Assembly: GCA_000165345.1 (NCBI GenBank)
Contig: CM000432.1
Span: 1,024,001 to 1,088,000, forward strand
Direction: 5' to 3'
DNA: 64,000 nt
Shown in pieces: positions 13,652 through 31,622 of the stretch (position 1 is the stretch's first letter; every line of letters begins with the position of its first letter). The translations under genes were made by a program, and so were the position numbers. The notes under the pieces are model-generated. The model did no database searches, was not told the DNA's origin, and saw nothing but the letters and a program-made list of their open reading frames with translations.

Positions 13652-16600
13652 TCATTCTTCCGTATCCAAAACACTTAAAGGAATTCTGTCATCCTGAATT
13701 AGCTCATCTATATGCTTAATATGCTTGTATCCTGGTGGAATAGAAATATTCATATTCTTGTTAAATTTTATTCTTCTCGGATTTCCACTTGCCGAATCGA
13801 AATTTTGAGATTTACGAGCTAAAATTAAATCTTTCTTTTCAGTAGATTGAACTTGAACAAGAAGGAATGAAGCATAATCGTTTAAAATATGATTCATTTT
13901 GGATTTGAAGCCGAAAAAATCAAGTTCCTTAAGACTTTCTATTATTGATTCCGAATATCCAAGATTAAACTTATGGCTATTAAACTCTTCATCAATATCC
14001 GATTTTAACAACTTATTCTTGAGCTTTGAAATAGTTAAATTCTTTATTGCCTTATAATCCCCTCCAAAACCATTCTTGAGGTAATTATTATATTTATCTG
14101 TAAATTTAGATATATATAACCCCAAATCATTAGCTGAGTAATCCCAAGACTCTAATTGAACACTCCATTTATAATAACTATCAAATGCCTCAATGAATGT
14201 CTTTAAACTCAAACTTTCACTTGTTGTTTTTAAAGACTCATTAAGCCAGTATGTATTGTAATAGGCATCATTTAAATATAAGATTCCGATATCAACATTG
14301 TCAGTATAAAAATCCTGAATATTCTTATAGATGATGATATCCAATAAAGCAATATTTGGACCAAATTCATCCGAACTTAATTTAAAATCCAAGTAACCAC
14401 TACTCATTACTTCATTTGTACAATTAATCTGACCACATTCCTCATTTAGTAACTTAAATAGATTCTCAATTGAAAACGTTTTATCAAGTTTCTTCATCGC
14501 TTTTTCACCAAAATTTGAATTAATATAATTCTTTGATAATTCAAAATAATCTGGACGATTATAATGATAAAATACTTTTTTATTAGCTGTACCACGAAAA
14601 TCCTTAATTGGGAAAGATCTGCTCTTAAATAATTTAAAACATTGCTCTTTTTTAGCTTTAATACCAACTCTAGTCGAAAATTCCTTTAATAATTTCTCTA
14701 ATTCTGCTCTATCCAAGTTACCTATAAATAATCCATCAATACATAAATTCTCCTTAAATTTTTTAAATTCATTATATAATTCTTGATAAGTTATTTGACT
14801 TAAACCTAAGTATTGCCGACCCAATGTTGGATAATTTGGAGCAGTTATTCTCCAAGAAAGTTCTCTTGCTTTAAGCTCTGAAGTTATTGTTTCTTTTTTT
14901 CTCATTAATAATCCTTTATAAATGAATAATGAGTCATTTAAAACTGCCTCTGTAATAACTTCTTCTGAATTTAATGATGAAAAGATGGTCTTAATAATAA
15001 TATATAAACTTGAACTATAACCACTTATATGTAAATCTATGCTTGGAACATTTGAAAGTTGTTCGGGACTATTTCTTGGACTAAATGTAAGCTTTGCATC
15101 TTGAATTAAAGGTAAATTTAAAGTATTATTCATTGAAATCACTAAAATATAGCTCAATATCAAAGTAATAAATTTAAAAGAATTAAAAGCTGAACTTAGT
15201 CTTAATATTCCTTTAAAATACGGCTGTTTCTTATCATTTCTAGCTTTATACCAAACATTAACATTTTCAGAAATAGAAATTTGTGTATCATGATATTTAC
15301 ATATAGCTAAACGACGATCTCGAACCATTTTGGTCTTAAAAATATCCCCAATTTTGGTTAATAAATAATAATTAGGATAGAATTCATTATAGCTTTCAAT
15401 GAATGTATTTAATTCAGTATCAACAACAGCATCATTTCCAGGATTTGGAGAATTTGAAGTACATTCCCAAATAAAGTCAACAAGTTTGAAGTCTTTTGGA
15501 GTATATGGATTGATAAATGGTCTAGAAAGTCCATTAATAATACCAAAAGATTCTTTAGTTTGTTTTAAACGATTGATTAGTCTTGGAGAGATCTTTTTAA
15601 TATTATATTTGATTTTAAGGAGTGGTTCTTCATAATGATATACGTACTTTCCATTGCAATCAATGATTCTATTTCTTGATGATTTACTAAAACATTCATC
15701 ATTACCAGAATTGCTGCTAAATGAGTAGAAACTAGTATTAAATACCTGATTTTCAACAATTTCGGTAATATTTTCAACATAATCTTCATAATTATTACTC
15801 ATTAAATAATTAGCTTGGTTTGAATTAACTAGAATGAGTATGTTTTCAATATCCAAGAAATTTAAGATTTTATTAAATTCTTCTAATTCAAGGTCGTTGT
15901 ACTTACAATATCTTTCCAATTTATGCCAAACATTATAATTAATCAAAGAACTGATTCTATCTTGAATATTTAATTTAAAATCAAACCAATTAAAGTTCAT
16001 ATAATTAGCAACACAGTTATTGATAAGAAATTCAAAGTATTCTTTTTTAATTTTTGTTTTACGTAAAAGTACCACAGAACTATATAATAATTCAAGAGTT
16101 TCCTCTAATAGAATTTGTTCAACATCAGATTCAACTTCAAACCAAACTAGAGCAAGTCTTTCTGCATAATATTCAACATTACAAGTTAATATAAGAGGAG
16201 AAATAGCATTTCTAAGTGAGCCAGAGTATTCTCCACAAAAGTAATGTTTGACCAAATATTCAAATAAGGGTATTCTATTTGAGCCTAATATGGCCCCCTT
16301 TTCGGAATCCAGAACAAATACAAATGAGATCTTGTTATCAACTCCTTTATATTCAACAAAATTTCCTAATAGACCTTGAGTATGTAAATTTTTCAATCCA
16401 ATATTATATCTCATAAGTTTGATATCTGTATTTAGATTTGGAATGGTTGAGAAATGTCTATTTACCAATGTAGTCAAATGTTCAAAAGTTAAAGAAGACT
16501 CAATAACTAACTTCATGATATTTGAACTATAGAATTTCTTTTTAAACTTCTTAATTTCTTTGACCAAATCAGAAATTACACAATTTTTCATTGTCATAAG

Positions 16601-17104
16601 TGATCCTCGTAATTCTGAATTAAATATTGATTTTAAGACAGCATTTCTTTGAACTGCACTGGAATTCACTTCATTTTCATATTCTTTTTTCAACATTCCC
16701 AAACATGTAGTTACAATTTCTTCAGAATAATCAAGTACATCTAGAGAGCTCCTTATTCTTCTTAAATACTCATCCAGACACTCAGATGAGAAAATTCCTG
16801 AGAATTCAATGGTTGTTTCACTAGACTGAGGAATCCAATAATATGTAATGCATGCCTGACCTTTTTTTTGTATAGAGTCCATTACTTTCGTGAATTGTTT
16901 TCCTTCAGTCTGAAAATATTGGGAAACACAACTTAGAACTTTTGAGAAGCCTAAGTAATCTTTTGGGTCGAAAATTGAACCCAAGTCTAAACCGAAACTC
17001 ACTAATGATAATTTGTCTGAGCTCGAAATTAGTAGTACCTCCAGCTTATTTGGCAGATAAAATTTCTTTACCAAGCCTGAAGGATTAATGTTACCCGAAA
17101 TCAT
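13652..17104 (-). CDS. insulinase-like (peptidase M16 family) protein lacking the HxxEH zinc-binding motif, so probably non-catalytic; 1150 aa
   Basis: ATG at 17104. The N-terminus aligns to M16 family topology (LPNKLEVLLISS...SFGLDLGSIFDPKDYLGFSKVLSCVSQYFQTEG). The GLAHFLEHMLF position is occupied by GFSKVLSCVSQYF, and no HxxEH occurs anywhere in the ORF. Large expanded paralogous families of such proteins are typical of Cryptosporidium genomes. Confidence 0.6.
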   Translation of the reverse strand: MISGNINPSGLVKKFYLPNKLEVLLISSSDKLSLVSFGLDLGSIFDPKDYLGFSKVLSCVSQYFQTEGKQFTKVMDSIQKKGQACITYYWIPQSSETTIEFSGIFSSECLDEYLRRIRSSLDVLDYSEEIVTTCLGMLKKEYENEVNSSAVQRNAVLKSIFNSELRGSLMTMKNCVISDLVKEIKKFKKKFYSSNIMKLVIESSLTFEHLTTLVNRHFSTIPNLNTDIKLMRYNIGLKNLHTQGLLGNFVEYKGVDNKISFVFVLDSEKGAILGSNRIPLFEYLVKHYFCGEYSGSLRNAISPLILTCNVEYYAERLALVWFEVESDVEQILLEETLELLYSSVVLLRKTKIKKEYFEFLINNCVANYMNFNWFDFKLNIQDRISSLINYNVWHKLERYCKYNDLELEEFNKILNFLDIENILILVNSNQANYLMSNNYEDYVENITEIVENQVFNTSFYSFSSNSGNDECFSKSSRNRIIDCNGKYVYHYEEPLLKIKYNIKKISPRLINRLKQTKESFGIINGLSRPFINPYTPKDFKLVDFIWECTSNSPNPGNDAVVDTELNTFIESYNEFYPNYYLLTKIGDIFKTKMVRDRRLAICKYHDTQISISENVNVWYKARNDKKQPYFKGILRLSSAFNSFKFITLILSYILVISMNNTLNLPLIQDAKLTFSPRNSPEQLSNVPSIDLHISGYSSSLYIIIKTIFSSLNSEEVITEAVLNDSLFIYKGLLMRKKETITSELKARELSWRITAPNYPTLGRQYLGLSQITYQELYNEFKKFKENLCIDGLFIGNLDRAELEKLLKEFSTRVGIKAKKEQCFKLFKSRSFPIKDFRGTANKKVFYHYNRPDYFELSKNYINSNFGEKAMKKLDKTFSIENLFKLLNEECGQINCTNEVMSSGYLDFKLSSDEFGPNIALLDIIIYKNIQDFYTDNVDIGILYLNDAYYNTYWLNESLKTTSESLSLKTFIEAFDSYYKWSVQLESWDYSANDLGLYISKFTDKYNNYLKNGFGGDYKAIKNLTISKLKNKLLKSDIDEEFNSHKFNLGYSESIIESLKELDFFGFKSKMNHILNDYASFLLVQVQSTEKKDLILARKSQNFDSASGNPRRIKFNKNMNISIPPGYKHIKHIDELIQDDRIPLSVLDTEE

Positions 17105-17852
17105 TGCTTTCTCCTTTTCATCAATCTATTTGTATTTACTTTCATCATCCTTTTAATTTCTACTCTGTCCTTTTTTGACTTTTTATTTCATCTATTTTAA
17201 TAGAATTTTAATAGTCAAAAGTGGATTGCCCGCCCGAATTTTAATATAGATTAATTAATAAGTTTCCTAATTAATTATTATTAAATCAATAAATAATAAT
17301 AATTAATTAAAATGACTATGAATTGTTAGTTTATATTTGACATTTTTTATATTTTAATTTTAAGACGATATATTGAATATTCCTATATTTTGTATAAACA
17401 GAAGTAACAAAATAGTGTAATTTAAATAGCTAATATTAATTTCAACAGAATATTTGTAAGCATAGACCTGAGTTAATCCCCCTTTTATTCCAAAAACTTT
17501 GCAGTTGAATTTGGCTCTTTCAATCTCATGTTTTGACGAGTTTGAGCCAATATATCTAAAGTAGAATATAAAGAAAAATAAAAGTTATTGATATACTACA
17601 CATTACCCAACATTTGTTAATACAAATTTCTTTATTAATGATAAATTTTCTCCTATTTTGATTTTTTTTTTCATTCATGTTTAAGTTAAACATTTTAGTG
17701 ATTCGATTCATAGTTTCTAATTAGCTTCTTATGACGTTAAAACCACATTTGAATTTGACATGGGTCATTCTTTGAAATACAGTCCATATCTAATATACCA
17801 TAATTATCTAAAGCTTAATTTCATAATTAAATTTGTAATAAAAATATTATTA

Positions 17853-19223
17853 CTATACAAACCTACCTGGATCAAATTGATGTGAAAAAACAAGTTGATT
17901 ATTGACGAGCTTGATTAAGGTAGTTTTTGAACAAAATGAGCATAGGCATCTCATCAGATACTTGGAAAGTTTAATAATTTGACTGAATTCAGGATCTTTC
18001 TTGTAAACTTGGAGAATTGATTGAATAATCCTTTTAGCTCCATATGCTGCAATGATATGAGAGTAAACCTCAGTTCTTTGACATGATTTAATTAGGACAA
18101 TTAAACCCTGTTGAACTATTTGATGATTATTAACATTAATATCGATAATTTCCAATATTTCCCTTATAATATCAGGATTGTTAAGTTTAAAGTCTTGAGA
18201 AGTGAATAGTATGGAAACATATATTGCCAATATATTTTCAATGAGAAATATATCTTGATTCTTCCCTAACTTTTTTGTAATTAATTCAAAAACTCCTAAT
18301 TTCAAAAACTCGTTACATGCGTTTAAACTTGATCTAATAAGAAATCTCAGAGCTGCAAACCCCCAAATTTGAGTTCTTTCATCAAGCTTTTCATCTTTTA
18401 AATATAGCATGATTTTTTTCCCAATATTAGAATCAATCCAAATCTATTATTAATAATTTGTAAAGAATTTCAAAAGGGAACCGTAAATAAAGTTTTAGCT
18501 GTTTTCAAAAGTGCCATATTGTTTTACTTACCTCGGATACGCTTAATGAATCGGATGACGAAATAAAAATTAATCTAAAAATTGCCAACAAAATCGAATT
18601 GTTCACTGAAGAATTCAAAATATTCTTCTCCAAATATGTAAATAGCTCCAATATTTCTGGAATAATCTATTATAATTTGAGTTTACAAGTTTTTTAAAGC
18701 TCATTCTTAATTATAGATTTCTTAAACTTACTATTGGAACCATTCTTTCGGAAACACCATCATTAAAAAATAAATGAGTTAGCAAAAAAATACATATTAG
18801 CACTATTTCAGGTGATTTCTTATGATATTTTATGGTATTTAATAATATTTCCACAGCTCCAGATTCACACATATGATTTCTTATTATCGAATTCCCATCA
18901 AGTGGGTCCAATAACTCTGTTATTTCAATTAGTCGCGATAATAAAAAAATTGTATCAACTTCAGAACGTAGCTGCCTTAATATCGAAATAATCCAAATGG
19001 CATGTAATTCTTTTATTTGAGGTTGAATAAACTCTGTAGATAAATTATGGGCTTTATTCCCAAAATTTATTCCTTCATAAGTTATTATGTCCCAGAAAGA
19101 CAATAATCGATTACCATTATGATTTCTAATAACAAATTTCTGAGATAATTCCAATCCATTGTTTTTTTTCTTTAATTTTATATTCTTTACTGCACCCTCA
19201 TCTTTTGAAACACAACATCCCAT
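17853..19223 (-). CDS. N-terminally acylated (MGCCVSK) armadillo-repeat protein, ARO/Vac8-like. Three exons on the minus strand at 19223..18732, 18666..18532 and 18443..17853, giving about 405 aa
   Basis: The track shows two separate ORFs (18711..19223 and 17853..18410). On the minus strand VPI|GTAAGT (donor at 18731) joins through an AATAG acceptor at 18668-18667 to a 135-nt exon. That exon reads IIPEILELFTYLEKNILNSSVNNSILLAIFRLIFISSSDSLSVSE and ends at GAG|GTAAGT (18531). An ATAATAG acceptor at 18445-18444 then reopens the frame as IWIDSNIGKKI-MLYLKDEK. All junctions are phase 0. The MGCC start gives a Gly2 myristoylation site plus Cys3/Cys4 palmitoylation sites. Confidence 0.7.
18444..18531 (-). 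other. predicted spliceosomal intron (88 nt, GTAAGT...ATAG)
   Basis: Donor GTAAGTAAAAC and acceptor TAATAG. It joins two phase-0 exons of the ARO-like gene. Confidence 0.6.
18667..18731 (-). other. predicted spliceosomal intron (65 nt, GTAAGT...AATAG)
   Basis: The donor GTAAGTTTAAG lies directly after the ATA codon. Splicing removes the in-frame TAA at 18711-18713. Confidence 0.6.
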
Positions 19224-19410
19224 TATCTTTTTTCATATGTACTTGTAGTCAAATCTCCATTAGATATGCTTAGTTACTAACAATCTATCAGAATTTTTCC
19301 AAGTATGCTCTTTATATTTTTATATTCTTTTTTCTAATTTATTAATTCTCTAAAATACCTTCAAAACATCTCATTTCTGCCTTTTGTCTTAAATGACATT
19401 TCACTTTTTG

Positions 19411-19438
19411 CCACATGTAACCTATTTTGGCGCCAATG
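19411..19438. promoter_or_regulatory. CCACATGTA plus TTTTGGCGCCAATG composite in the divergent promoter of the ARO-like gene (-) and the secreted acidic gene (+)
   Basis: The GGCGCC core is at 19429-19434. The same CCACATGTA 9-mer occurs at 10851-10859. Confidence 0.5.
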
Positions 19439-19941
19439 TGCATACAAGTATTACAAAGTGGAATAATGCATTAATAATAAATATGGTAAAAATAAGAAAA
19501 TTATTAAATGTATATGTATTGATAAAAATAAAAAACTGAAAAATTCTTTTATTCTTTTAGAGTTTGAAAATTTGACAAATGTATTGGATATTCTACTGAA
19601 ATAAGAAATGAATTTAAGTTTTGCAAAAAGAAAAAAAAAATCAGCTATTGAGATAAAATTTATGTTTAATTATTGCATGCAAGCAATATTAAATAGTTAA
19701 GGTAAATTAAATTATGAAATTTTGAACATTTAAATTAATTTCTTATTCTCTAAATTTAATATCAAAATGAAAAATTGTTAATTTTTTTTTCCTTAATGCA
19801 TTTTTAGGCTGAGATAAAATTATAGATTTATCCAATATTATATAAATTTATAATCGTAATAATATTATTAATTTGAAAAAAAATTTAAATGAGCCATATT
19901 TTACATAGTTTTTTCCTAAGGTCAAAAGTTAATCTTTAGAA

Positions 19942-20889
19942 ATGAAGTTAATTCATGTATTTTCTCCTATTTTCCTTTTATTTGTAATATTCTGCGATTT
20001 TACAGAAAGAAGCTTTTTGTCAAAAATTTCACTTGTAAGAACAAAAATAATCCACAAGGAAAGTAATGCGAAGGATGGGATAATTATTCCAGACTTATCT
20101 GACACTCCCAAAAACGAAGAGCCACTGTATTTAGTTGAAGGATTAATTGATTTATCTGAGGAAGTTGATGATGATGATGATTACAGGGATGAAATAATCT
20201 TCATAGATGATATGGAAAGAAGCAATTTAGATGAACCCACTTCTAATGATGATGATAAATTAAGTTCTGGGGATGAAACACGAAATATTAATGATTCTCA
20301 AAACAATGATGAATTAGAGATTGATAATAAGAGTGAAATTCCAGAATTTAATACTGAATTATATTTCAATAGTCACAAGTGTTTCCTAATGTTAGGTTTC
20401 GAAGTTGAGTTCTTAGAAAATCCAATTTTGAATAACTCCGGAGTACTGAAGTATATCAAGGAAGCAGAAATTAACACAGAAGGTGAGACAGTTAAAAATC
20501 ACGAGTATACAGATGATGAGAAATATAAGTTGATTGAATTGGAAACAAGAAACAAAAAACGTGATGAGATAATTTCTCTAATGAAACATTTAAGAGAATC
20601 TTGCTGGAATATTACTTCACAAAGCACATTAGAAGAATTCAAAAATGAAGTTCTGGATATTATTGAAATTGTTAAGTCAAAAATTTGTCAGATTAATATT
20701 AAATTGGAGAATTATATTAAGATTACAGACAAAGAGAACTCTGAGTTTGATTTTGATAATTATGAAAGTAATATGGAAAAGAAAAGCAAACTTTTCGGAA
20801 GAAAAAGTTCTTATAAGTTGGCTCTTTCTTCATTAAAGAGAATTGAAGAATACTGGTCTCACATTGAAAATCTTCCTTGCAATATTTAA
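19942..20889 (+). CDS. secreted acidic protein (signal peptide followed by a D/E-rich region), with no known domain
   Basis: ATG at 19942. The N-terminus MKLIHVFSPIFLLFVIFCDF is signal-peptide-like. It contains DDDDDYRDE and E/D-rich tracts. Confidence 0.7.
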   Translation: MKLIHVFSPIFLLFVIFCDFTERSFLSKISLVRTKIIHKESNAKDGIIIPDLSDTPKNEEPLYLVEGLIDLSEEVDDDDDYRDEIIFIDDMERSNLDEPTSNDDDKLSSGDETRNINDSQNNDELEIDNKSEIPEFNTELYFNSHKCFLMLGFEVEFLENPILNNSGVLKYIKEAEINTEGETVKNHEYTDDEKYKLIELETRNKKRDEIISLMKHLRESCWNITSQSTLEEFKNEVLDIIEIVKSKICQINIKLENYIKITDKENSEFDFDNYESNMEKKSKLFGRKSSYKLALSSLKRIEEYWSHIENLPCNI

Positions 20890-21423
20890 CATTTTTTCAC
20901 ATTTAGATTAATTATTAACTAATATAGGCAAAGAAAAATGTGTGCTTAGATTTAAAATAACAAAATGATTAATTCTAAATCAAATCATATGATTACAGCA
21001 ACTACAGTATGATTATATAAAAATAATTCAATTTTAATATATAATATCTATTTGCTTAAAGTACATATCGCAATTTCTATCTTATTTTCTTACATGGAAT
21101 AATTATTACATGCATATTTGAAGTTCGGGCTTTAGCGCCTTCATTATGAGGGTAAATTATTTTTCTTATGTATTAAAAATTGTATTAGTTACCCACTGCA
21201 TAACTTTGTTTGAACTTTGGGGGAAAGAGGGAAAACAATTTATCCTTAAGCGAATAATATGTAAATTGATAAGTTTGGAATATTAAATCGCTATAGGAAT
21301 GAGAAAATAAATTTGATAATTGTGTGTGTGTTTTTTTTCAATTAGCCTCTAAAATACAGAATCTTTGGAATTCCCAGAATTTACTTGGTTTAATAAATTA
21401 ATTCGAATTGGGATTTGAAAAGA

Positions 21424-24400
21424 ATGATACACGATGTTTTACTTTCTCTTACAGGGTTTGTTGGGGATAAGATTGAAGTGGACCCTGTAGAATTTACAAG
21501 TAACTCAATTTCTTTGTATAGTTATAAATATAGATTGAGACTCAAATCTAATATTGAGGAATATTTATCAGAAACTGAAAAATTATTAGTGGACAAGATT
21601 TTGCATATTTCTAGCAACTTCTATTCTGTTAATGAATTTGTTAAAAGAGTTCTAGGCTCTGTGTACAACAAGCATAGTAATTATAATTCAAATACAAACA
21701 CGAATCCAGCTTTTGGATCAAAATTTAACCAAGAAAAGAGCCATCAACTTCAAATTAGAGCAGATCTTAAGAAAAGATTACTCAGAATTAACCCTGTTGG
21801 ACTATATATACATGCAGTAGCAAAATGCATGCAGGAGTATATTCTTCGATTTCTTCAGAAGATTAATCAGTTAGAAAGAGAAGTTTTTGAAAATCCGAGT
21901 TTGCCTCTTACTTTTGTACTAACTTCAATAACAAAACCCTCCAGAGTTTTAGATAATTTTATGGCATTCATTGATGAGTGGTATAATCTTGCTCTTAATT
22001 CAAGAGTAGATTCTACATGTAAATTCTCGTTTTCAAATATGTTTATTACAATGGAAAAATTTGAAAATTTGTGTGAAATATATATAAGTATTCCATGTGG
22101 ATATATATTGGATTATTTCTATTTGGGAGTGTCTTCTGGAGATTTACTTCAGGAATCAGTGAGCAAAAACTTTCTATTGGTATGTAGTCGAATCTTTTGC
22201 TATCAAATGATAAATTGGATTATTTTAGGAAAGTTGGTTGACCCTTTTGAAGAGTTTATTGTCGGAAGGTTTTCCATTTCAGCTCCTACTAATTCATTAA
22301 ACTCCCAAAAGGATGCTAACTTTTCAAACTCATTTTCAATCTCTTCAAATGATAGGTAAGTTTGAGTTTTTGGTTAAATTGAAGAATAACCATTTTGGAA
22401 TCTTTTTAATTTTTACAAATCATTCTAATTAATCTTTAATATAGCTGTATTGAAGCCTTGGACTTGGATGAAAATTTATGTAAACTTTATCGTGAGGAGG
22501 AAATTTCCCATTGCGGGGTTTTTGAATGGGAGGGACTATTTTATACCAGATATGAATCCTTTACGAAGAAATTCTTTACAGTAAAGTTCCTTTACAAAAT
22601 CTTTGGTATTGGGAAAATTGTAAGTAAATCTTGTTCTTCCTTAGATAAGGAAGATTTTTATTTGTATTTATTCTCAAACAATCCTCATTTCCTTCTAATT
22701 TTTAGGTAAGACTTCTAAATAGATATGGGAATAGTAATATTAGAGATAGAATGAATGAAACAGGGTTTGAGAGTTACATTAATCAAATTTCAAACATTCT
22801 TAATGAATCGTTTCCGCATATTCAGTCCCAGTTGGAAGGGTTTCTTGAAAAATTCAGAAGGGAGATTTCTTTTATTATGTATGAATCAATAATTTTAAGA
22901 AGCCAAAACAACATAGCACACAAATTTGCATATAAAAATCTTTTTTCTCAAAACATCAAATTAATCCGAAATTTATATTTCCTTGGGTATTCTGACATTT
23001 TTCTTCAACTAGATAATTCCATTTTCTACAAAAATCTAAGCTATGATGACTCCCAAACACGTAATACTAACTTTACTGAACAGTCTGAATTCATCTCAAA
23101 CACTTGGAAAGAACTTTTGTCTTTATTCAAATTAGGCAATATTACCTCAAGTATTCATAATGATTTCTCAAACTCCAGAATTAACTTATGCTGCGACACA
23201 TTTGATCTTTTCAACTTTAACCTAAACGAGCTCGAATTAATTGACATGTTTAATTGCTCCCTTACAAATAACAATATACTCCTTTTTGGCGGGAAATCTG
23301 AAATGCATGCAGACCAATATTTGCATTCTGAAAATGAAAAATTAAAGAATGAAGGTGATGAGGGCCATGAAGATTATATTTCTGAAGATTTTGGTATTAC
23401 AGATTGCAACTTTGATTTTCCTTATGAAAATTTTCATGCAATTTCAATCTCTAGAGTCAAGTGGCCAATTCGTATCATAGATGGCTTTAATCATATATTA
23501 GAATGCGTTTCTTCTGTAAACGTAGTTTCATCTTTATTGTTCGCAGCATCTAATAGTATTCCATTTATTGGCGATGGAATTTGTACTTCTCAGGAGGATG
23601 GTTCAGGACACGATGGTGAGTTTTTAAGACTTACGTGGAGCTTTAGATTTAAGGATGAAAATAAACAAGTTATGGAATTCTGTATTAAGCTGTATTGGCA
23701 TACAAAACACTTGAGATCTTTGTTAAATACTGAAAAGGAGTATTCACTATTAAAAACCAATTTACTTGAAGTTCCCAATCCCTTTATCAATTTAATGGAA
23801 GGCGATTTATTCGCATATAGACTTAGGATTTTGTTCAAACAATCAAATATTTCAATATATATGGAGCCACTAAAAAATACCCTTCCTGGCTCAAATTCAC
23901 TCTTTGGAAGACCAACTCAGGTACTGAGTATTCAACATATTAATATTGATATTTGTTTACCTTTGCATACTTCGTCATGTTTTATTCATCTACTAAGACA
24001 TAATGATCACGCAAGATTCGAAAAGGAGAAAGAATTTAAGGTTTTTAAATGGTGTCATATAAGTTCCTCTAATAATTCAGATGTAATTTCTCAGCTAGCA
24101 AACTCTTGCAGCATGGGAGCGTCTTCAAGTACAAACTATAACTTTAATTTATTAAAAAACGTCTCGTTAAATTCTTATCTAAGTGGAATAAGCTTTGATC
24201 ATCATATATTTAGATTAAGAATTATCCAGAAATTTGATTGGCCGTTACCACTTTTATTCACAAAAAAGAATATGGAACATTACTATAATCTATTTGATTT
24301 TTATTGGCTATTTTTCAGAACATATAATGGGCTTGAAAGGATTTGGAGAGAGGCTTTCAATCTAAGATATGGAAATAGAAGAGGGGCATTCACTTCATTT

Positions 24401-25390
24401 TCTATTGAACATCCAGTGAACCATTTTTGGAATTATATTTTTTACTGTAGATGGGTTCTACAAGTAACAATTGGTGAATATTACTCTTTTCTTCAACACT
24501 TTGTAGTTGAACAAAGCTTCAGAGACTTTCTCGATAAGGTCAAGGAAGAGCAAGATTTTGAGAATATTATCCAAAAACATAATGACCTTGTTCAAACACT
24601 TATTCTTAAATCGGGGTTCCTTTTACCCTCTATTTTAAACCCATTAACATCAATTCTAGTTTTAACAGGTGAATGGAGTTACTCTATTTTTAGAGAAATA
24701 TCTAGATGGAATGATTCCAGCGAATTTATTGAAGCAAATTACACATTCTCAAATGCTGAAGAGATTAAATTCCCATGGGATAGTGATGAATGGCAATCTA
24801 TTATCAATAGTACAATAAATTTCATGAATAACTTTATTCTACTCTGGGATAATCTTTGCTCTGAAATTTCAATAGTTTCAAGTAATATTCAATATCAACA
24901 CTTTAGCCTTTTGCTATCTATTTTCAATAATCACAAATGGAATATTGATATACCTGACCTTAATAATGCTAACAACAGAAAAGCTTTCCCTTATGGCTCT
25001 TTTGGTCCATCACACTCGGACTATAATTATGGGGATGACGAATACAGAGAGGAAACTGTAACACACTCCGTAGTAGACCGTTCGGAAGACTTTGAAAGCG
25101 ACAACTACACAGATTCAAGAGAAGAGGACAATAGCGATAACTATTTCAATAGTCAAGATGATCTTGAAGATGATTATGACAATGAACTTGATTTATTCAG
25201 AGGTGAATTTAATGAATACAATAATAATAACGACAATGATGAAAATAATAACGAGAATAAACAAAGTCAATACTCACCACATATGCTTGATGGAACAAAT
25301 AACAGCTATATCGAGCTCATAAACTCCAAACTTAGTGCCACTTATCTAAAAACAAACAAAATCGAATATAATAGCTATCAGAGTTCATAA
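21424..25390 (+). CDS. gamma-tubulin complex protein (GCP/Spc97-Spc98 family, GCP4-like N-terminus) with long insertions and an acidic C-terminal tail. Three exons at 21424..~22355, 22445..22619 and 22706..25390, giving about 1263 aa
   Basis: The N-terminus MIHDVLLSLTGFVGDKI matches the conserved GCP N-terminal signature (compare human GCP4 MIHELLLALSGYPGSIF). The C-terminal GRIP2-like region reads WLFFRTYNGLERIWREAF...HNDLVQTLILKSGF. The track gives three ORFs (21415, 22458, 22751), joined by GAT AG|GTAAGT at about 22356 to an ATAG acceptor at 22444, and by AAA ATT|GTAAGT at 22620 to a TTTTTAG acceptor at 22705. Phases are consistent (2 then 0). The track start 21415 is TTG. Confidence 0.75.
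22356..22444 (+). other. predicted intron 1 of the GCP gene (about 89 nt)
   Basis: Donor GTAAGTTTGAG and acceptor TTTAATATAG. It removes the TAA that terminates track ORF 21415..22359. Coordinates are accurate to about 1 nt. Confidence 0.55.
22620..22705 (+). other. predicted intron 2 of the GCP gene (86 nt)
   Basis: Donor GTAAGTAAATC and acceptor TCTAATTTTTAG. The downstream exon begins GTA AGA CTT in frame with the 22751 ORF. Confidence 0.6.
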
Positions 25391-25860
25391 TTACAAATAT
25401 ATTGAAAGTGTATAAAATATTCTAAACATTTATTTAAATTGTTTTTTTCTATTTTTTAATCCTCTATTTGAAATGTCAAACTTGTAAAAATTATTTTCAA
25501 GAGTTTCCCGCCCAAACACATACCGGTGTATGGTACCGAAAAAAAATAATAATTGAGGGGAAATAAGATATGTAAATTGTGAATAAAAGTATATATTAAA
25601 AATAAGTTTAGGTATAGGAAAAAAGAGGAATCAATCAGAGAAAAAAAATTATTTAAATAAAAATTTAAATAATTGAACAAGAGTGAAGAATTGTAAGTGC
25701 TGGGAGTTACATCCGGATTATCAATTTACTCATTCTTTTCTTTAAATATTGCAAAAAAAGAAAAAGGGAGAGCCAAAAATATCAGTCTTTGAAAGTCTTT
25801 TTCATATAAAATTCTTTTGATTTTATTTTTGTGTATGTGTATTTGCAACTTTTAATTGAA

Positions 25861-28122
25861 ATGAACGATAGAAGATACTTTCAAGGCTCTAAGAGAGGAG
25901 AGCTGCACGAATTAAAGGAGGAATTACACTCATCAAGTAAGGAAAAAAAGAAAGAAGCAGTGAAAAAAGTTATTGCAGCAATGACAGTAGGGAAAGATGT
26001 TTCTTCCCTTTTTCCAGATGTTTTAAATTGTATGCAAACTGGTTGTATTGAACTAAAGAAATTAGTATATCTATATATAATAAACTATGCTAAGGTACAG
26101 CCAGAGTTGGCTATTTTAGCTGTAAATACCTTTTTCAAAGATTCTATGGATTCAAATCCTTTAATTAGAGCATTGGCTATTCGAACCATGGGGTATATTA
26201 GACTTGAACAAATTACAGAGTATTTAGTTGAGCCTTTAAGAAGATCATGTAGTGATCCTGATCCATACGTTAGAAAAACTGCAGCAATTTGTATTGCAAA
26301 GTTATATGATATTTCTCCTACTTTAATGGAAGAACAGGGATTCTTTTCCTTGTTGAAGGATATGCTCAAGGATCAAAGTGCAATGGTTGTAGCTAATACT
26401 GTTGCAAGCTTATTAGAAATTTATGAAACTAGTATAAGTAAGGGTCATCAACTTGAATCTTTACAATCTATAAAAGACGATAAACAAGACCAAGGAATGA
26501 CTGAAGATCAGAAATTCTACAAATTGACTTTTAATGAGGTAGAAAAACACCAAATCCTACAAGCCTTGAATGAATGTACAGAATGGGGGCAGATTTATAT
26601 ACTAAATGTAGTAGCAGAGTGGAAGGTATCAACTGAAAAAGAAAGTGAACAAATCATCGATAGATTAACTTCTAGACTATCTCATGCAAATCCTGCAGTA
26701 GTTCTTTCAACTGTTAGAGCTGTTTTGAATCTACTGAAAAATTTGGAAAATGATGATTATATTACAGGTACCCTACGTAAATTAAGACCACCGATTGTTA
26801 CATTACTTACAACTTCACCTCCTGAAGTACAATATGTTGTTTTGAGGAATGTTCAGTTAATTGTACAATCATATCCTGCCTTTTTTGAAACAGAAATGAA
26901 GCTTTTCTATTGTAAATATAATGATCCTGCCTATATTAAGATTGAAAAGCTTAATTTATTATATAGAATGGCATCTATTGATACTGCAAATAATTTATTA
27001 AAAGAACTAAAAGAGTATAGTACCGATACGAATATAGAATTCTCAAGAAATTCTATTAAAATTATTGCATTAATATCTATAAAATTCAAAGAAACTGCCT
27101 CTAATTGTTTTCAAATCCTAGCAGAACTTATCACAAATTCTCATCAGGACCATATAATTCAAGAAGGAATTATCTCTTTAAGAGATATTTTGAGATCCTA
27201 TCCACAATTATCGTCAAATGTAATTCCCATACTAATGGAAGTATCAGAATCTATTGTTGAGCCTGAATCAAGATCTGCTTTTGTTTGGATTATTGGAGAA
27301 GTTTATGAGTTTGTTCAAGTAACAAAACCAAGTACAAAAAATGAAACTTTGAATGATTTTCTCCGTTATTTTGTTGATATATTTATTGAAGAATCAGTCT
27401 CCGTTCAACTTCAGATACTTACAACCATAGTAAAATGCTTTCTTAAAGCTCCAATTCATAATCAACAACTTGTTACTGATATTTTTAGACTTGCAACTAC
27501 TAATGCAGAAAATCCTGATGTTAGAGACAGAGCCTTGATATACTGGAGACTTCTCTCAACCAATCCTGAGGAAACTAGAAAAGTTGTTCTTTCTCAAAAG
27601 ACTGTATTATCTTCAAAAAGCTTTGATATTGAACCAAAACTTCTTGAAAAGCTTATGGGAGATCTTGGAATGATTTCCTCAGTATATCATAAACCTCCAA
27701 GTTGTTTTATTGATATTAGTAAGAATAATATAGTTCAAAATCAACTTCAAGCTTCTTCTGAATCTCAAAATCATTCAGCTTTAATTTCATCATCAGATTC
27801 CAATATCGATACACTTCCTTATAATATTGATTCTGGTTTTTCTGTTAGTTACTCAAATACTAACGAGCTAATAAATATTGATGATCTTATTTCTTATTCT
27901 ACTCCTGTATCAAATATTAACAGTAACAAAATATCAAGTTCTCAAGATATGAATTCGTCAAATCAAGTTCAAAGTTCTGAGCTTTTAGATTTTGGTCTCC
28001 CTGCTTCTAATATAAGCTTATTCAAAAGTAATACTCAGGGAGACAATAATCAAACAGGAGATGTGAACTCACAGCCATCTGGTAGCAATGTTGTTACATC
28101 TGTTGATCTGTTATCTCTCTAA
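25861..28122 (+). CDS. AP (clathrin adaptor) complex beta subunit, beta-adaptin of AP-1/AP-2 type
   Basis: There is near-identity over long stretches to beta-adaptins, for example KKEAVKKVIAAMTVGKDVSSLFPDVLNCMQT, LKKLVYLYIINYAKVQPELAILAVNTF and DPYVRKTAAICIAKLYDI. The track start 25831 is GTG, and the first ATG at 25861 gives MNDRRYFQGSKRGELHELKEEL as in metazoan AP2B1. The C-terminal part is S/N-rich. Confidence 0.92.
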   Translation: MNDRRYFQGSKRGELHELKEELHSSSKEKKKEAVKKVIAAMTVGKDVSSLFPDVLNCMQTGCIELKKLVYLYIINYAKVQPELAILAVNTFFKDSMDSNPLIRALAIRTMGYIRLEQITEYLVEPLRRSCSDPDPYVRKTAAICIAKLYDISPTLMEEQGFFSLLKDMLKDQSAMVVANTVASLLEIYETSISKGHQLESLQSIKDDKQDQGMTEDQKFYKLTFNEVEKHQILQALNECTEWGQIYILNVVAEWKVSTEKESEQIIDRLTSRLSHANPAVVLSTVRAVLNLLKNLENDDYITGTLRKLRPPIVTLLTTSPPEVQYVVLRNVQLIVQSYPAFFETEMKLFYCKYNDPAYIKIEKLNLLYRMASIDTANNLLKELKEYSTDTNIEFSRNSIKIIALISIKFKETASNCFQILAELITNSHQDHIIQEGIISLRDILRSYPQLSSNVIPILMEVSESIVEPESRSAFVWIIGEVYEFVQVTKPSTKNETLNDFLRYFVDIFIEESVSVQLQILTTIVKCFLKAPIHNQQLVTDIFRLATTNAENPDVRDRALIYWRLLSTNPEETRKVVLSQKTVLSSKSFDIEPKLLEKLMGDLGMISSVYHKPPSCFIDISKNNIVQNQLQASSESQNHSALISSSDSNIDTLPYNIDSGFSVSYSNTNELINIDDLISYSTPVSNINSNKISSSQDMNSSNQVQSSELLDFGLPASNISLFKSNTQGDNNQTGDVNSQPSGSNVVTSVDLLSL

Positions 28123-28423
28123 AAAGTAATAACTTTATAAACTTCAAGTTATATCTAACTAGAATATCATTAAAGTACAACATTTAAAATAGTCAATAGA
28201 AAAAAAAAGTTAAGGAGGTTTGATAATTTTCTTTTATATAATCCCAATGTCTTTTGATTAAAATTTGTGTATTTTTTTATAATAAAATACAAATTCACTT
28301 TTGTATTACTCCAATTTGAGCAATAATTCTTAATTTGAAGTGTTTGATATTAAGTTAAAATAAAAAAGGATTAGCAATAAATCTTTGGATTACTTTCTTG
28401 ACAAAATTGTAGAAATCCTTATA

Positions 28424-29390
28424 TTACTTCTCCTTATTACTTGTATTATTTGCATTTTCAAAATTATTATTATTATTATCTAAACCAATAGAAGACATAA
28501 AATCTCTCACATCATCTATTGTTATGGTATTTTTATTTTGGTCATCACTCATTCTGCTTCTTAAAAATGATATAAACTTATCAGCAAATTCTCTATAACC
28601 TTGAGCTAAATGTATCTTCTTTTCATGAGGTAATGAATTAAATATATTTGCAAAACCATTAATTCCGTTTGCTCCTGATTCACCAGATTCACTCTCATCT
28701 GAGCCACTAAATCCAAAAATATCTCCTTCGAGTATTTCCTGAATAGTAATTGTTTTGTCATCTTCAGAATCTTCTATTGTATCTTCGTTTACATTGTCCA
28801 AGATTTCATCGCTTTCTTTAATATTTTCAATCTCATCCTTATTCTTGCAATATCTCAAAGAAATTCCATTATAATTTAAATGGGTTATTCTTTCTTTACT
28901 TTCAAAAACTACTCTAGTATTATCTGACTTAAATTCATCTCTTTCTTCATATTTGAGCTGTTAAATTAAAAGAAGTTAATTTGTTTGTTTTAATTGGATT
29001 TAATTAAAAGATTCTTTTGAAAGTACAAATCAAGCCTTATCTTTCTAATCAAACCAAAGACTTGACTTGAATTGACTTATCAAATATATTAACTTAACTT
29101 ACCATATAAACTCTTCTACCTTTTGAATCCCTTTCCTCATTTTCTGTCATTAATATTCTCCCTGGCCACCACACAATTTCCTCTTTTTCTAATAATTCTT
29201 TAGAATTATCATGATCACAAAATTCGGTACCTATTATCCACTTTAAAAGTGATATTTAAATACAGAATTTTAATGTTTTAGGAAAAAAAATTGGTTAACT
29301 TACTCTTACAAAGATTGTTTGGCCAATATTTATTCCATAGGAAGCCTTTAAGATTGCAATATCACAAAAATCTCTAATTTGATTACTCAT
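28424..29390 (-). CDS. three-exon gene on the minus strand (29390..29304, 29240..29103, 28957..28424) encoding a 252-aa protein with an acidic, S/E/D-rich C-terminal half; function unknown
   Basis: ATG at 29390 gives MSNQIRDFCDIAILKASYGINIGQTIFVR and ends at AGA|GTAAGT (29303). A TTTTAAAG acceptor at 29242-29241 opens the next exon WIIGTEFCDHDNSKELLEKEEIVWWPGRILMTENEERDSKGRRVYM, ending at ATG|GTAAGT (29102). A TTTAACAG acceptor at 28959-28958 opens LKYEERDEF..., which runs into the track ORF 28424..28858. All phases are 0. An alternative first donor TTT|GTAAGA sits 6 nt upstream. Confidence 0.6.
28958..29102 (-). other. predicted intron (145 nt, GTAAGT...AACAG)
   Basis: See the exon logic of the 28424..29390 gene above. 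Confidence 0.55.
29241..29303 (-). other. predicted intron (63 nt, GTAAGT...TTAAAG)
   Basis: See the exon logic of the 28424..29390 gene above. Confidence 0.55.
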
Positions 29391-30021
29391 TATAGCATTA
29401 ATTAATGAAAAAGATATAGGTTCATACTATACTTGCTATTAATACAAACGCTTGGATTAAGCAATATATTCAAACAAATAATAGAATATTACGTATTTTG
29501 ACCTCTTGTTATCTTTTCTTAATTAAATATTCGAAAGATTTTACTAAAATAAGAAAGTTCACTTTTTTTTGAGTTACTTTTTATTATTTTTTAATAAATT
29601 ATTAATTAGTCCTTAATTTTCCCTCATTTACCTATTTACCGGAATTTTCTATTCCAGAATTTAATATACTAAGACGTTATAAAACTTTATTTAGAAAAAG
29701 TTTTGTGGGAATTCAAATCCAATCCGTATATAATAAAAATAAAAATTGCTAGTATTCTCAATATCTTCCATTTTTAATTGTTTCCAGGAAAATACTGTAA
29801 CATGTGAGTTTATTTATAGCTATATTTTGATTAATTTAAATATATCTATACGTAGATACACTAATGTTTAAAGTTAGAGTTATCAATATTGATATTTACT
29901 TAATTTAGAAAATCAGAAAGAATTTTTATCTGCTCCTTTTTGAAATTTAAAGTTTTTTAAATCTCCTACTTCCCCTCGATTAAATCTTTAATTTTGCATT
30001 AATATTATTGGGTACCCTCCA

Positions 30022-30036
30022 TTTAGGCGCCAAATG
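30022..30036. promoter_or_regulatory. E2F-like TTTAGGCGCCAAATG in the divergent promoter of the 3-exon gene (-) and the RING-H2 gene (+)
   Basis: Direct reading of the sequence. Confidence 0.5.
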
Positions 30037-30236
30037 ATTTATCTAATATAATTAATGGCCGAGTTGGAAAAAAAAATAAAAAGATTTAAGGAATACAAAG
30101 AAAAAATAATAAAAAGCAAATAGAGAATAAGATTTATTAAAAGGGTTGAAATTGGTGGATTTAGATTACTGAGGGAATTGGTATAGATTTGATAGGTTTA
30201 GAGTAAAGAGCAGAGTAAAAGAAAAGAAGAAATTAA

Positions 30237-31622
30237 ATGGAGTCTAATTTATATGTTTCTAGACAGAGAGGAGATGAGACAAATCATATATTAGTTAGAG
30301 AATATCAAACATGCCTATCTGGTTATCCTGATACGAGACAACATGGAAGTTTTGAGAATTTATCAAGACCATATACTCCATTGAGGGATATAACAGGCAG
30401 TATATTTGGAGGATTAGTACGTGAATCAAGAGTAAGATCAGTGAATGAATCTAACGATTTTAATAGAATTAGGAACTCTATGGTAGAAAGATTAAATAGA
30501 GAGAGTATAAGAGGTCCAGAAAGTCGGTTTTTTGGGTTTGACTCAAATAATAGAAATACGTCCTATTATAATAGTCATGAAAATGACATAAGGGCATTTA
30601 ATAGGTCAATGTCTATGAGCAGTCCAAATTTAGATATTGGCTTTGCTTCATTATCTAGAAATAGTTCTAATGAAGCAATTGAGAATAATAGTAGCTTTTT
30701 GAATAGAAGTAGAAGTTTTGCTGATAGAATTATGGAGCAGTTTGATATTGTAGAAAGGGAACATAATCAATTAGCTGAAAGAATTCATAGAAGTCAATCA
30801 ATTTATGAGCAGATTCAGAGGAATGGAGCTGAAATTGATCAACTTTTTGATAATTTATCATATAGAATGCAAAGAAGACATACTCAAAGAGAAAATTCTA
30901 CTGGTAATAATTTTCAATCTAGAAATACAAGATATGGTGGGTCTGTAATAGATTGTAGTAGAAATGGCCACATTAATCATAGATTTAGTAACAGACCAAG
31001 ATTCGTATCTATGCAAGATGTCCATAATCATTTTCGTGATAATCTATTGGCTACTGAAGAACATGAAGAAGAGGAAGATTATGATGATCAAGATAATGAT
31101 GTCATTGAAATTATTCAGGTTGATGATGATGAAATTTCCGATATTATATCCAGAAGAAATGCAGATATTAGAAATAGATCACTAATTATTACTCAAGAGG
31201 AAATCATTATGGAAGAAAGTAATGATCCTGAAGATTCTGAGGATGAACATGAACAAAATCATGGCCAAGAATATGATCAATATCATGAAGATGAAGAAAT
31301 GCATAATGATGGTAATATAACAAGAGTATTAAATAGGCTTAGAGATAGAATTTCTCAAAATCAAGAAGAAGATGTTTCTGGGGTGCCTATCAATATTCAA
31401 AATGCATTACCAGTATCAAAATTTGATTTATCAAGATCTCAGAATTTGGATGATGATAAGAAAATGTGTTTAATTTGTTTGGATGAGTTTAAGGACCAGC
31501 AAGAAATTCTATGGCTTCCATGTACTCATTGTTTCTGCAGAAATTGTATTACTTCTTGGTTTGAAAGAGGAACAGTATGTCCTATTTGCAAGGATGATTT
31601 ATTGGCTCATTTTAATTATTAG
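30237..31622 (+). CDS. RING-H2 finger E3 ubiquitin-ligase-like protein (C-terminal RING), with an N/S/R-rich N-terminal region and an acidic DEH-rich middle
   Basis: The C-terminal motif is CLICLDEFKDQQEILWLPCTHCFCRNCITSWFERGTVCPICKDD, matching the C3H2C3 RING-H2 pattern. Confidence 0.85.
   Translation: MESNLYVSRQRGDETNHILVREYQTCLSGYPDTRQHGSFENLSRPYTPLRDITGSIFGGLVRESRVRSVNESNDFNRIRNSMVERLNRESIRGPESRFFGFDSNNRNTSYYNSHENDIRAFNRSMSMSSPNLDIGFASLSRNSSNEAIENNSSFLNRSRSFADRIMEQFDIVEREHNQLAERIHRSQSIYEQIQRNGAEIDQLFDNLSYRMQRRHTQRENSTGNNFQSRNTRYGGSVIDCSRNGHINHRFSNRPRFVSMQDVHNHFRDNLLATEEHEEEEDYDDQDNDVIEIIQVDDDEISDIISRRNADIRNRSLIITQEEIIMEESNDPEDSEDEHEQNHGQEYDQYHEDEEMHNDGNITRVLNRLRDRISQNQEEDVSGVPINIQNALPVSKFDLSRSQNLDDDKKMCLICLDEFKDQQEILWLPCTHCFCRNCITSWFERGTVCPICKDDLLAHFNY

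What the first reader, a model, noticed from the sequence alone, without database searches (positions are those of the whole stretch)
17853..19223. Dually acylated armadillo-repeat protein (ARO/Vac8-like) encoded by a three-exon gene that the ORF track splits in two
Two minus-strand ORFs separated by about 300 nt are joined exactly in frame by two short introns (65 and 88 nt). Both have GTAAGT donors and (A)ATAG acceptors. The joining model also recovers a 45-codon middle exon invisible to the ORF track. The resulting 405-aa protein begins MGCCVSK, a textbook N-myristoylation (Gly2) plus palmitoylation (Cys3/Cys4) signal, and the rest is armadillo-like helical repeats. This is the architecture of the apicomplexan rhoptry-anchoring protein ARO and of fungal Vac8. 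Introns are rare in this kind of genome, so a correct model matters for any annotation of this organelle-tethering factor.
Basis: partly seen in the sequence, partly recalled or inferred. Interest (0 to 1): 0.6.

Follow-up and report, generated by a model that had tools for sequence, protein, structure and literature searches.

The report
Lipid-anchored armadillo protein gene, already annotated
The two open reading frames belong to one spliced Cryptosporidium parvum gene for a lipid-anchored armadillo-repeat protein, but the gene has four exons rather than three, public annotation already has it right, and it is not the rhoptry protein ARO.

Summary
Two short GT-AG introns (65 and 88 nt) join the minus-strand ORFs in frame through a 135-nt middle exon. 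All seven Cryptosporidium species examined have introns at these positions.

Its stop codon at 17853 lies inside that intron. The real gene has four exons and encodes 426 aa ending ...QIQMWF. The public C. parvum protein QOY42322.1 ("Armadillo-like helical protein") maps onto the window without a mismatch. A 2015 re-annotation had already listed cgd4_4250 as an exon of its flanking gene.

The ARO/Vac8 reading holds only as an analogy. CpARO is a different gene (cgd2_370). Profile comparison with PfARO gives 0.7% probability, and Vac8 is only one of many ARM hits.

The true relatives are uncharacterised proteins from Toxoplasma, Hammondia, Neospora, Cystoisospora and Selenidium. The Toxoplasma one (TGGT1_242570) is experimentally N-myristoylated, assigned to the Golgi and dispensable in tachyzoites. 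Both halves of the C. parvum gene are transcribed 8-17 times more in female gametes.

I read it as a lipid-anchored endomembrane scaffold. The gene model is already known and interest is low.

The parts
18732..19223 (-). Exon 1 (492 nt, codons 1-164). Start ATG at 19223-19221. Encodes MGCCVSK (19223-19203), a ~65-75-residue low-confidence linker and the first ARM helices.
   Evidence: exact map of QOY42322.1. An in-frame TGA lies 4 codons upstream of the ATG. MGCC is invariant in the orthologues.
18667..18731 (-). Intron 1 (65 nt, phase 0, GTAAGT...AATAG, 20% GC).
   Evidence: The position is conserved in 7 species, with lengths 52-141 nt.
18532..18666 (-). Exon 2 (135 nt, codons 165-209, IIPEILELF...SVSE).
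   Evidence: It is colinear in all orthologous proteins and exactly 135 nt in all 7 species.
18444..18531 (-). Intron 2 (88 nt, phase 0, GTAAGT...AATAG, 25% GC).
   Evidence: The position is conserved in 7 species, with lengths 44-234 nt.
17867..18443 (-). Exon 3 (577 nt, codons 210-401 plus the first base of codon 402). This is the bulk of the ARM solenoid. It contains the old 185-aa gene model cgd4_4250.
   Evidence: P0009/XP_625440.1 is the 185-aa ORF.
17814..17866 (-). An alternative TAG acceptor at 17810-17808 would give a 59-nt intron and a 424-aa product.
   Evidence: C. felis and C. serpentis have only the upstream-type acceptor.
17737..17813 (-). Exon 4 (77 nt including stop TAA 17739-17737). 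Encodes (A)LDNYGILDMDCISKNDPCQIQMWF*.
   Evidence: The tail peptide ending MWF-stop is conserved in all 7 Cryptosporidium species. It matches QOY42322.1 exactly.
17931..19022 (-). Region encoding the armadillo-repeat solenoid (residues ~68-380, about 7 repeats), interrupted by introns 1 and 2.
19198..19236 (-). Out-of-frame 12-codon upstream ORF (MKKDNGMLCFKR*). Its ATG lies 13 nt before the main start, which it overlaps. Whether it is transcribed is unknown.
   Evidence: sequence only.

Best explanation
The locus is one four-exon C. parvum chromosome-4 gene. It is cgd4_4260, which absorbs the obsolete model cgd4_4250. It encodes a 426-aa protein identical to QOY42322.1.

The protein has four parts: (i) an MGCC N-terminus; (ii) a ~65-75-residue linker predicted with low confidence; (iii) a ~310-residue armadillo solenoid; (iv) a short tail specific to Cryptosporidium, ending ...QIQMWF.

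Proposed mechanism. This paragraph is inferred. Gly2 is N-myristoylated during translation. Cys3 and Cys4 are then palmitoylated at a membrane. That fixes the ARM solenoid on the cytosolic face of an endomembrane, most likely Golgi or post-Golgi. There it would serve as a docking platform for one or more partner proteins. The family-wide invariant residues sit largely in consecutive ARM helices (around W77, H150/N154/D155, R195/F198/D203, W236/A240/L241/L244 and E278), which would fit a conserved binding surface.

It works like ARO or Vac8 (acyl anchor plus ARM adaptor) but belongs to neither family. It is a member of a separate, uncharacterised apicomplexan family that includes T. gondii TGGT1_242570. 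In C. parvum it is used mainly in female gametes.
For: Gene model:
- Frame restoration.
- Exact four-exon mapping of the public protein onto the window.
- Three intron positions conserved in seven species, with variable intron lengths.
- Exons more conserved than introns, and a third-position substitution bias.
- cgd4_4250 is listed as an exon of a flanking gene in the cDNA- and RNA-seq-based re-annotation (PMC4637869, Table S1).
- Both halves are co-regulated: near the floor in asexual stages, with log2 fold change +4.07 and +3.06 in sorted females (PMC6877471, supplementary file 4).

Acylation:
- The PS00008 motif with Cys3/Cys4 is invariant in Cryptosporidium. MGC is kept in Selenidium, Cystoisospora, Hammondia, Toxoplasma and Neospora homologues.
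- TGGT1_242570 is a high-confidence N-myristoyltransferase substrate: enriched by three capture reagents and responsive to NMT inhibitor. CSS-Palm is positive (PMC7373427, supplementary file 4).

Fold.

Family:
- Exhaustive HMM search gave 1.3e-11 for Selenidium, 2.2e-9 for Cystoisospora and 4e-9 for Hammondia.
- The alignments are colinear two-block matches.
- hhalign gives 96.2% probability, E 2.4e-9, over 265 columns.
- The T. gondii member was recovered.

Location: TGGT1_242570 is assigned to the Golgi by hyperLOPIT and has a fitness score of +0.18.
Against: - There is no direct evidence on the C. parvum protein: no localisation, acylation or partner data. The C. parvum hyperLOPIT paper was not available.
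- The Toxoplasma homologue shares only ~20% identity and carries large insertions, so its location may not transfer.
- The Toxoplasma homologue was not found in two palmitoylomes, and no myristoylated peptide was observed directly.
- The model is poor (pLDDT <50) for residues 1-76 and 397-426, so nothing can be said about the tail.
- The choice between the AAG (426 aa) and TAG (424 aa) acceptors rests on comparative evidence only.
Confidence: 0.6

Rival explanations
1. A three-exon, 405-aa protein that is the Cryptosporidium counterpart of the rhoptry anchor ARO, or of fungal Vac8, and tethers an organelle.
Against: - CpARO is cgd2_370: 273 aa, intronless, single copy, in the rhoptry hyperLOPIT set (PMC13432881).
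- hhalign against PfARO gives probability 0.7%.
- The profile finds no PDB sequence at E<=10.
- Vac8 ranks 20th, behind flagellar ARM proteins, catenins and APC. 5EWP is not in the top 60.
- The 405-aa model stops inside a conserved intron.
- The Toxoplasma homologue is assigned to the Golgi, not to rhoptries, while TgARO is 'rhoptries 2' in the same table.
Confidence: 0.04
2. Two separate unspliced genes, as in the original 2004 annotation (cgd4_4250 of 185 aa and cgd4_4260 of 170 aa).
For: Each ORF starts with ATG. Old records (XP_625440.1, XP_665345.1, CHM_4g4250) still carry the 185-aa protein.
Against: - The region between the ORFs encodes a 45-codon segment conserved in all orthologues and flanked by conserved GT-AG sites.
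- The 185-aa start Met is internal to a conserved helix region, and distant homologues span both halves colinearly.
- The re-annotation merged them.
- The two halves are co-regulated.
Confidence: 0.02
3. Same gene, but the TAG acceptor at 17808 is used instead of, or alongside, the AAG acceptor at 17814. That would give the 424-aa product annotated in C. hominis, by tandem-acceptor alternative splicing.
For: Both AGs are present in C. parvum, C. meleagridis, C. ubiquitum, C. canis and C. bovis. The C. hominis and C. ryanae records use the downstream type.
Against: - The residues encoded between the two AGs (A/T-L/I) are conserved in all seven species.
- C. felis and C. serpentis have no downstream AG, so only the upstream acceptor can work there.
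- The C. parvum, C. tyzzeri, C. meleagridis and C. bovis records use the upstream acceptor.
Confidence: 0.25
4. Same protein, but anchored at the plasma membrane or the inner membrane complex rather than at Golgi-derived membranes. Many dually acylated apicomplexan proteins (ISPs, GAP45, CDPK3) sit there.
For: MGC(C) N-termini are typical of pellicle proteins, on established knowledge. The same myristoylome table places many such substrates at 'PM - peripheral' or 'IMC'.
Against: The only datum for this family places TGGT1_242570 in the Golgi class. There are no data for Cryptosporidium.
Confidence: 0.2

Closest known systems
T. gondii TGGT1_242570 / TGME49_242570 and its Hammondia (HHA_242570), Neospora, Cystoisospora suis (CSUI_004548) and Selenidium serpulae homologues. 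All are annotated 'hypothetical protein'.
   Same: - Homologous over the whole ARM core: HMM E-values 1e-11 to 4e-9 against 1.8 billion proteins, and hhalign 96.2%.
- Shared motifs: LDPxD/E(G/S)N..R, (I/V)H(L/M)..ND(G/E)(V/T)S, (F/W)RL(I/L)F..S.D, W(G/V/A)(F/L)(A/G)ALR(F/L)L and (I/L/A)EN.
- The N-terminus MGC is conserved.
   Different: - The coccidian proteins are 825-890 aa, with long low-complexity insertions and C-terminal extensions.
- They have one Cys next to Gly2 instead of two, and they lack the ...KMWF tail.
- Identity is about 20%.
- The EuPathDB orthology used in 2020 listed only Hammondia and Neospora orthologues, with no Cryptosporidium entry.
ARO (armadillo repeats only protein): PfARO PF3D7_0414900, TgARO TGGT1_261440, CpARO cgd2_370
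   Same: An N-terminal myristoyl/palmitoyl anchor followed by an ARM solenoid. It is a peripheral membrane adaptor on the cytosolic face of an organelle.
   Different: - No detectable sequence homology (hhalign 0.7%).
- ARO is ~273-275 aa, with no long linker or tail. CpARO is a different, intronless gene on chromosome 2.
- ARO is a rhoptry protein and important for fitness (score -2.1). The Toxoplasma relative of this protein is assigned to the Golgi and dispensable (+0.18).
Fungal Vac8
   Different: It is only one of many ARM hits (rank 20). There is no sequence match. Vac8 is a fungal protein with about 12 repeats, of which no orthologue is implied here.
Generic ARM-repeat proteins (p120 and beta-catenin, plakophilin, APC, importin-alpha, FAP194/PF16, RSP14); Pfam ARM_ARMC5 PF24768
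   Different: Identity is 9-16%. The only Pfam hit scores 22.1 bits against a cut-off of 79.9. None of these proteins is lipid-anchored in this way.

Membership tests
Spliceosomal GT-AG intron-containing gene (single transcription unit) | Canonical donor and acceptor sites that restore one reading frame | tested here: met
   The sites are GTAAGT/ATAG, GTAAGT/ATAG and GTAGGT/TAAG. The 1,281-nt CDS is open to a single stop.
Spliceosomal GT-AG intron-containing gene (single transcription unit) | Intron positions conserved in orthologues while intron sequence and length drift | tested here: met
   Seven species were compared. Exon 2 is always 135 nt and introns range from 44 to 234 nt. Against C. 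ubiquitum, exon identity is 78-87% and intron identity 64%.
Spliceosomal GT-AG intron-containing gene (single transcription unit) | Spliced transcript observed | not testable with these tools
   The evidence is indirect only. The cDNA- and RNA-seq-based re-annotation lists cgd4_4250 as an exon of its flanking gene. The two halves are co-regulated.
ARO (armadillo repeats only) family | Sequence homology to PfARO/TgARO | tested here: not met
   hhalign of the A2 profile against PfARO gives probability 0.7%, E 0.078, over 22 columns. There is no PDB sequence hit.
ARO (armadillo repeats only) family | A ~270-280-aa protein made of little other than ARM repeats; single copy per genome | tested here: not met
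   This protein is 426 aa, with a 65-75-residue linker and a tail. The single C. parvum ARO is cgd2_370 (PMC13432881).
ARO (armadillo repeats only) family | N-terminal Gly2 myristoylation plus Cys palmitoylation motif | tested here: met
   MGCCVSK fits PS00008 and has Cys3/Cys4. This is a sequence motif only.
ARO (armadillo repeats only) family | Location on the rhoptry surface | not testable with these tools
   There are no data for this protein. Its Toxoplasma homologue is assigned to the Golgi, whereas TgARO is assigned to rhoptries.
Vac8 | Sequence homology to Vac8 | tested here: not met
Armadillo-repeat fold (superfamily level) | Right-handed superhelix of three-helix repeats, similar to solved ARM proteins | tested here: met
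Pfam ARM_ARMC5 (PF24768) | Score above the gathering threshold | tested here: not met
   22.1 bits against a cut-off of 79.9.
TGGT1_242570-like apicomplexan acylated ARM proteins (unnamed family) | Significant, colinear profile similarity across the ARM core | tested here: met
TGGT1_242570-like apicomplexan acylated ARM proteins (unnamed family) | N-terminal MGC acylation signal | tested here: met
   MGC is present in Cryptosporidium, Selenidium, Cystoisospora, Hammondia, Toxoplasma and Neospora. One transcriptome member has MGLGC and another starts MSS.
N-myristoylated proteins | Myristate actually attached to Gly2 | not testable with these tools
   This is shown only for the Toxoplasma homologue, by YnMyr enrichment and NMT-inhibitor response.

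The most novel reading that the evidence does not exclude
cgd4_4260 and TGGT1_242570 define a previously unrecognised family of acyl-anchored ARM adaptors. The family is shared by Cryptosporidium, gregarines and coccidia, and was not found in the haemosporidians or piroplasms searched. It would act as a second, ARO-like organelle anchor. In Cryptosporidium it would be deployed in the female gamete, for instance to position or dock Golgi-derived wall-forming or other macrogamete vesicles. The conserved ...KMWF tail might regulate the ARM groove.
Probability: 0.15. Interest if true: 0.5.

Novelty: already known. Interest (0 to 1): 0.2.

Why it matters
As a gene-model finding it adds little. The correct four-exon model has been public since the 2015 and 2022 C. 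parvum re-annotations, and the protein is already labelled "Armadillo-like helical".

Three small points are useful:

These are C. ubiquitum cubi_01673, C. canis OJ253_3400, C. felis HWI79_1284, C. serpentis ACR3K2_34070 and C. meleagridis CmeUKMEL1_01740.
- The protein should not be called ARO or Vac8. That label would send anyone annotating rhoptry biology to the wrong gene.
- The remote link to the experimentally myristoylated Toxoplasma protein TGGT1_242570 (Golgi class), together with the transcription in female gametes, gives a testable starting point for an otherwise uncharacterised protein.

Tried and rejected
- A Pfam scan of the spliced protein gave only a sub-threshold ARM_ARMC5 hit.
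- phmmer and profile searches of PDB sequences found nothing relevant.
- Full-text searches for cgd4_4250/cgd4_4260 and for TGME49_242570/TGGT1_242570 found no paper that names them in its main text.
- The C. parvum hyperLOPIT paper (Guerin 2023) is not held, so the protein's predicted compartment in Cryptosporidium could not be looked up. The 2026 sporozoite proteome paper has no supplements held.
- An iterated profile search with the widened family alignment recovered Toxoplasma but no further lineage and no named member.
- GTAAGT frequency is not by itself evidence: 28 observed against 24 expected.
- I considered ARMC5-like membership and rejected it on score.

Full report
**What is in the sequence**

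The window is AT-rich (28% GC). On the minus strand there are two ATG-started ORFs, 18711-19223 (170 aa, starting MGCCVSK) and 17853-18410 (185 aa), 300 nt apart. Two segments can be removed: 18731-18667 (65 nt, GTAAGT...AATAG) and 18531-18444 (88 nt, GTAAGT...AATAG). Unspliced, all three frames are closed by stops.

**Is the joining more than chance?**

The donor hexamer alone proves nothing, because GTAAGT occurs 28 times in the window against 24 expected. The comparative evidence is decisive.

- A search of 5.8 billion proteins found orthologues only in Cryptosporidium. Identities are C. meleagridis 93%, C. ubiquitum 77%, C. canis 71%, C. bovis 53%, C. felis 52%, C. ryanae 51% and C. serpentis 37%. 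All contain the middle-exon peptide colinearly.
- I fetched the genomic loci of six species and mapped each public protein onto its DNA. Introns 1 and 2 sit at the same codon boundaries in every species.
- Exon 2 is exactly 135 nt everywhere, while intron lengths vary from 44 to 234 nt.
- Exons are more conserved than introns. Against C. ubiquitum, exons are 78-87% identical and introns about 64%, with indels confined almost entirely to introns.
- Exon substitutions favour third codon positions (19/15/40 and 61/51/114).

**The missed intron**

The C. meleagridis, C. bovis and C. ryanae proteins do not end ...DPGRFV. They end ...DP(A/T)LD.YGIL.M.CI.K.DP.QIKMWF. In the window, the codon after QFDP is split by a GTAGGT donor at 17866. 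An acceptor at 17814 (TTAAG) opens a fourth exon, 17813-17737, which encodes ALDNYGILDMDCISKNDPCQIQMWF and then a stop.

The same exon, ending MWF-stop, is present downstream in all seven species. That includes C. ubiquitum, C. canis, C. felis and C. serpentis, whose public models read through the intron.

A second AG 6 nt downstream (17808) would give 424 aa, as annotated in C. hominis. The two residues encoded between the AGs (A/T-L/I) are conserved in all seven species, and C. felis and C. serpentis have no downstream AG. I therefore favour the 426-aa form, but only junction reads can settle it.

**It is already annotated**

- An exact-sequence look-up shows that the 90%-identity cluster contains C. 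parvum QOY42322.1/WRK31702.1 (426 aa, "Armadillo-like helical protein"). It also contains C. tyzzeri (426 aa), C. hominis (424 aa) and the obsolete 185-aa records XP_625440.1 and CHM_4g4250.
- QOY42322.1 maps onto the window without a mismatch as four exons: 19223-18732, 18666-18532, 18443-17867 and 17813-17737. The window is therefore C. parvum chromosome 4.
- Isaza et al. 2015 re-annotated C. parvum Iowa from cDNA and RNA-seq. [quoted passage not shown]
- The same paper puts introns in about 10.8% of C. parvum genes, with mean length 99 nt and 22% GC. The three introns here (65, 88 and 53 nt; 17-25% GC) fit that description.

**The protein**

MGCC is invariant in all Cryptosporidium orthologues, and the N-terminus fits the PROSITE N-myristoylation pattern with two adjacent cysteines.

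**ARO or Vac8?**

- A 2026 paper characterises the single C. parvum ARO orthologue as cgd2_370. It is 273 aa, intronless and in the hyperLOPIT rhoptry set (PMC13432881). That is a different gene on a different chromosome.
- I took the PfARO sequence from the supplement of Broncel et al. 2020. Profile comparison with the Cryptosporidium alignment gives 0.7% probability over 22 columns.
- The profile finds no PDB sequence at E<=10.

The resemblance is therefore architectural (acyl anchor plus ARM solenoid), not familial.

**True relatives**

An exhaustive HMM search of 1.84 billion representative proteins found 11 hits at E<=0.001. Outside Cryptosporidium these were:

- Selenidium serpulae (1.3e-11, starts MGCAAT)
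- Cystoisospora suis CSUI_004548 (2.2e-9, starts MGCSQS)
- Hammondia HHA_242570 (4e-9, starts MGCTQS)
- Neospora
- two transcriptome assemblies

The alignments are colinear in two blocks separated by a low-complexity insertion in the coccidian proteins, and they share distinctive motifs. hhalign against HHA_242570 gives 96.2% probability, E 2.4e-9, over 265 columns. A second search recovered T. gondii TG_242570 (884 aa).

In the Toxoplasma myristoylome, TGGT1_242570 is a "High" confidence substrate. It has the MG motif, is enriched by three capture reagents and responds to an NMT inhibitor. Its CRISPR fitness score is +0.18, its hyperLOPIT class is "Golgi" and CSS-Palm is positive. It is absent from two palmitoylomes. 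EuPathDB orthologues are listed only for Hammondia and Neospora (PMC7373427, supplementary file 4). TgARO in the same table is "rhoptries 2" with a score of -2.1.

**Expression**

In sorted-cell RNA-seq (Tandel 2019, supplementary file 4), both old gene IDs behave alike.

| Gene ID | Asexual (log2 CPM) | Female in vitro | Female in vivo | log2 FC, female vs asexual |
|---|---|---|---|---|
| cgd4_4250 | 1.48 | 5.56 | 6.20 | +4.07 |
| cgd4_4260 | 0.96 | 4.02 | 3.60 | +3.06 |

. This fits a single transcript and shows that it is enriched in female gametes. The divergent neighbour cgd4_4270 (19942-20889) is even more female-specific (+7.0).

**Most likely mechanism (inferred)**

Gly2 is myristoylated during translation, and Cys3 and Cys4 are then palmitoylated at a membrane. 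This fixes the ARM solenoid, through the low-confidence N-terminal linker, on the cytosolic face of a Golgi or post-Golgi compartment. There the solenoid would dock partner proteins. The family-wide invariant residues lie largely in successive ARM helices, which would fit a conserved binding surface.

What is shown: the gene structure, the fold, the family relationship and the motif conservation. What comes from the literature on a ~20%-identical homologue: myristoylation and the Golgi class. What is inferred: palmitoylation, the compartment in Cryptosporidium and the scaffold role.

**Verdict**

The gene model is already public. Interest is low. The residual novelty is the cross-phylum family link and the expression in female gametes.

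Noticed in passing
window 19942-20889 (+) and intergenic 19224-19941: The divergent neighbour (315 aa, no Pfam hit, by position cgd4_4270) is strongly female-gamete specific in Tandel 2019 (log2 FC about +7). It shares a 718-bp intergenic region with the ARM gene. This could be a bidirectional female-stage promoter.
   Followed up: partly
window 21415-25390 (+): A gamma-tubulin complex component is also split in the ORF track. GCP_N_terminal lies in 21415-22359 and GCP_C_terminal in 22751-25390. GTAAGT donors sit at 22356 (exactly at the end of the first ORF) and at 22620, with an open mini-exon between them. At least two short introns are likely.
   Followed up: partly
L001 (C. ubiquitum), L002 (C. 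canis), L003 (C. serpentis), L005 (C. felis); protein P0012 (C. meleagridis UKMEL1): The public orthologue models cubi_01673, OJ253_3400, ACR3K2_34070, HWI79_1284 and CmeUKMEL1_01740 read through, or mis-splice after, the intron-3 donor. They lack the conserved last exon ending ...KMWF. Applying the four-exon model gives 426-aa proteins in C. ubiquitum and C. canis.
   Followed up: yes
window 19198-19236 (-): A 12-codon out-of-frame upstream ORF (MKKDNGMLCFKR*) starts 13 nt before the main ATG and overlaps it. The main ATG has A at -3 and G at +4. Whether the uORF lies within the 5' UTR is unknown.
   Followed up: no
window 25693-28122 (+): The Adaptin_N (beta-adaptin-like) ORF at 25831-28122 is listed with a GTG start, and a GTAAGT lies at 25693 just upstream. 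The real first exon and an intron probably lie upstream.
   Followed up: no
window 28122-30237: This is a ~2.1-kb stretch with no ORF of 150 aa or more. It has two minus-strand GTAAGT sites (29097, 29298). It may hold another multi-exon gene that the ORF track does not show.
   Followed up: no
window 13652-17104 (-): The downstream neighbour is a 1150-aa insulinase-like protein. It matches only the Peptidase_M16 inactive domain (31.9 bits). It is syntenic in all Cryptosporidium loci fetched except C. serpentis, where the locus held no called gene downstream.
   Followed up: no
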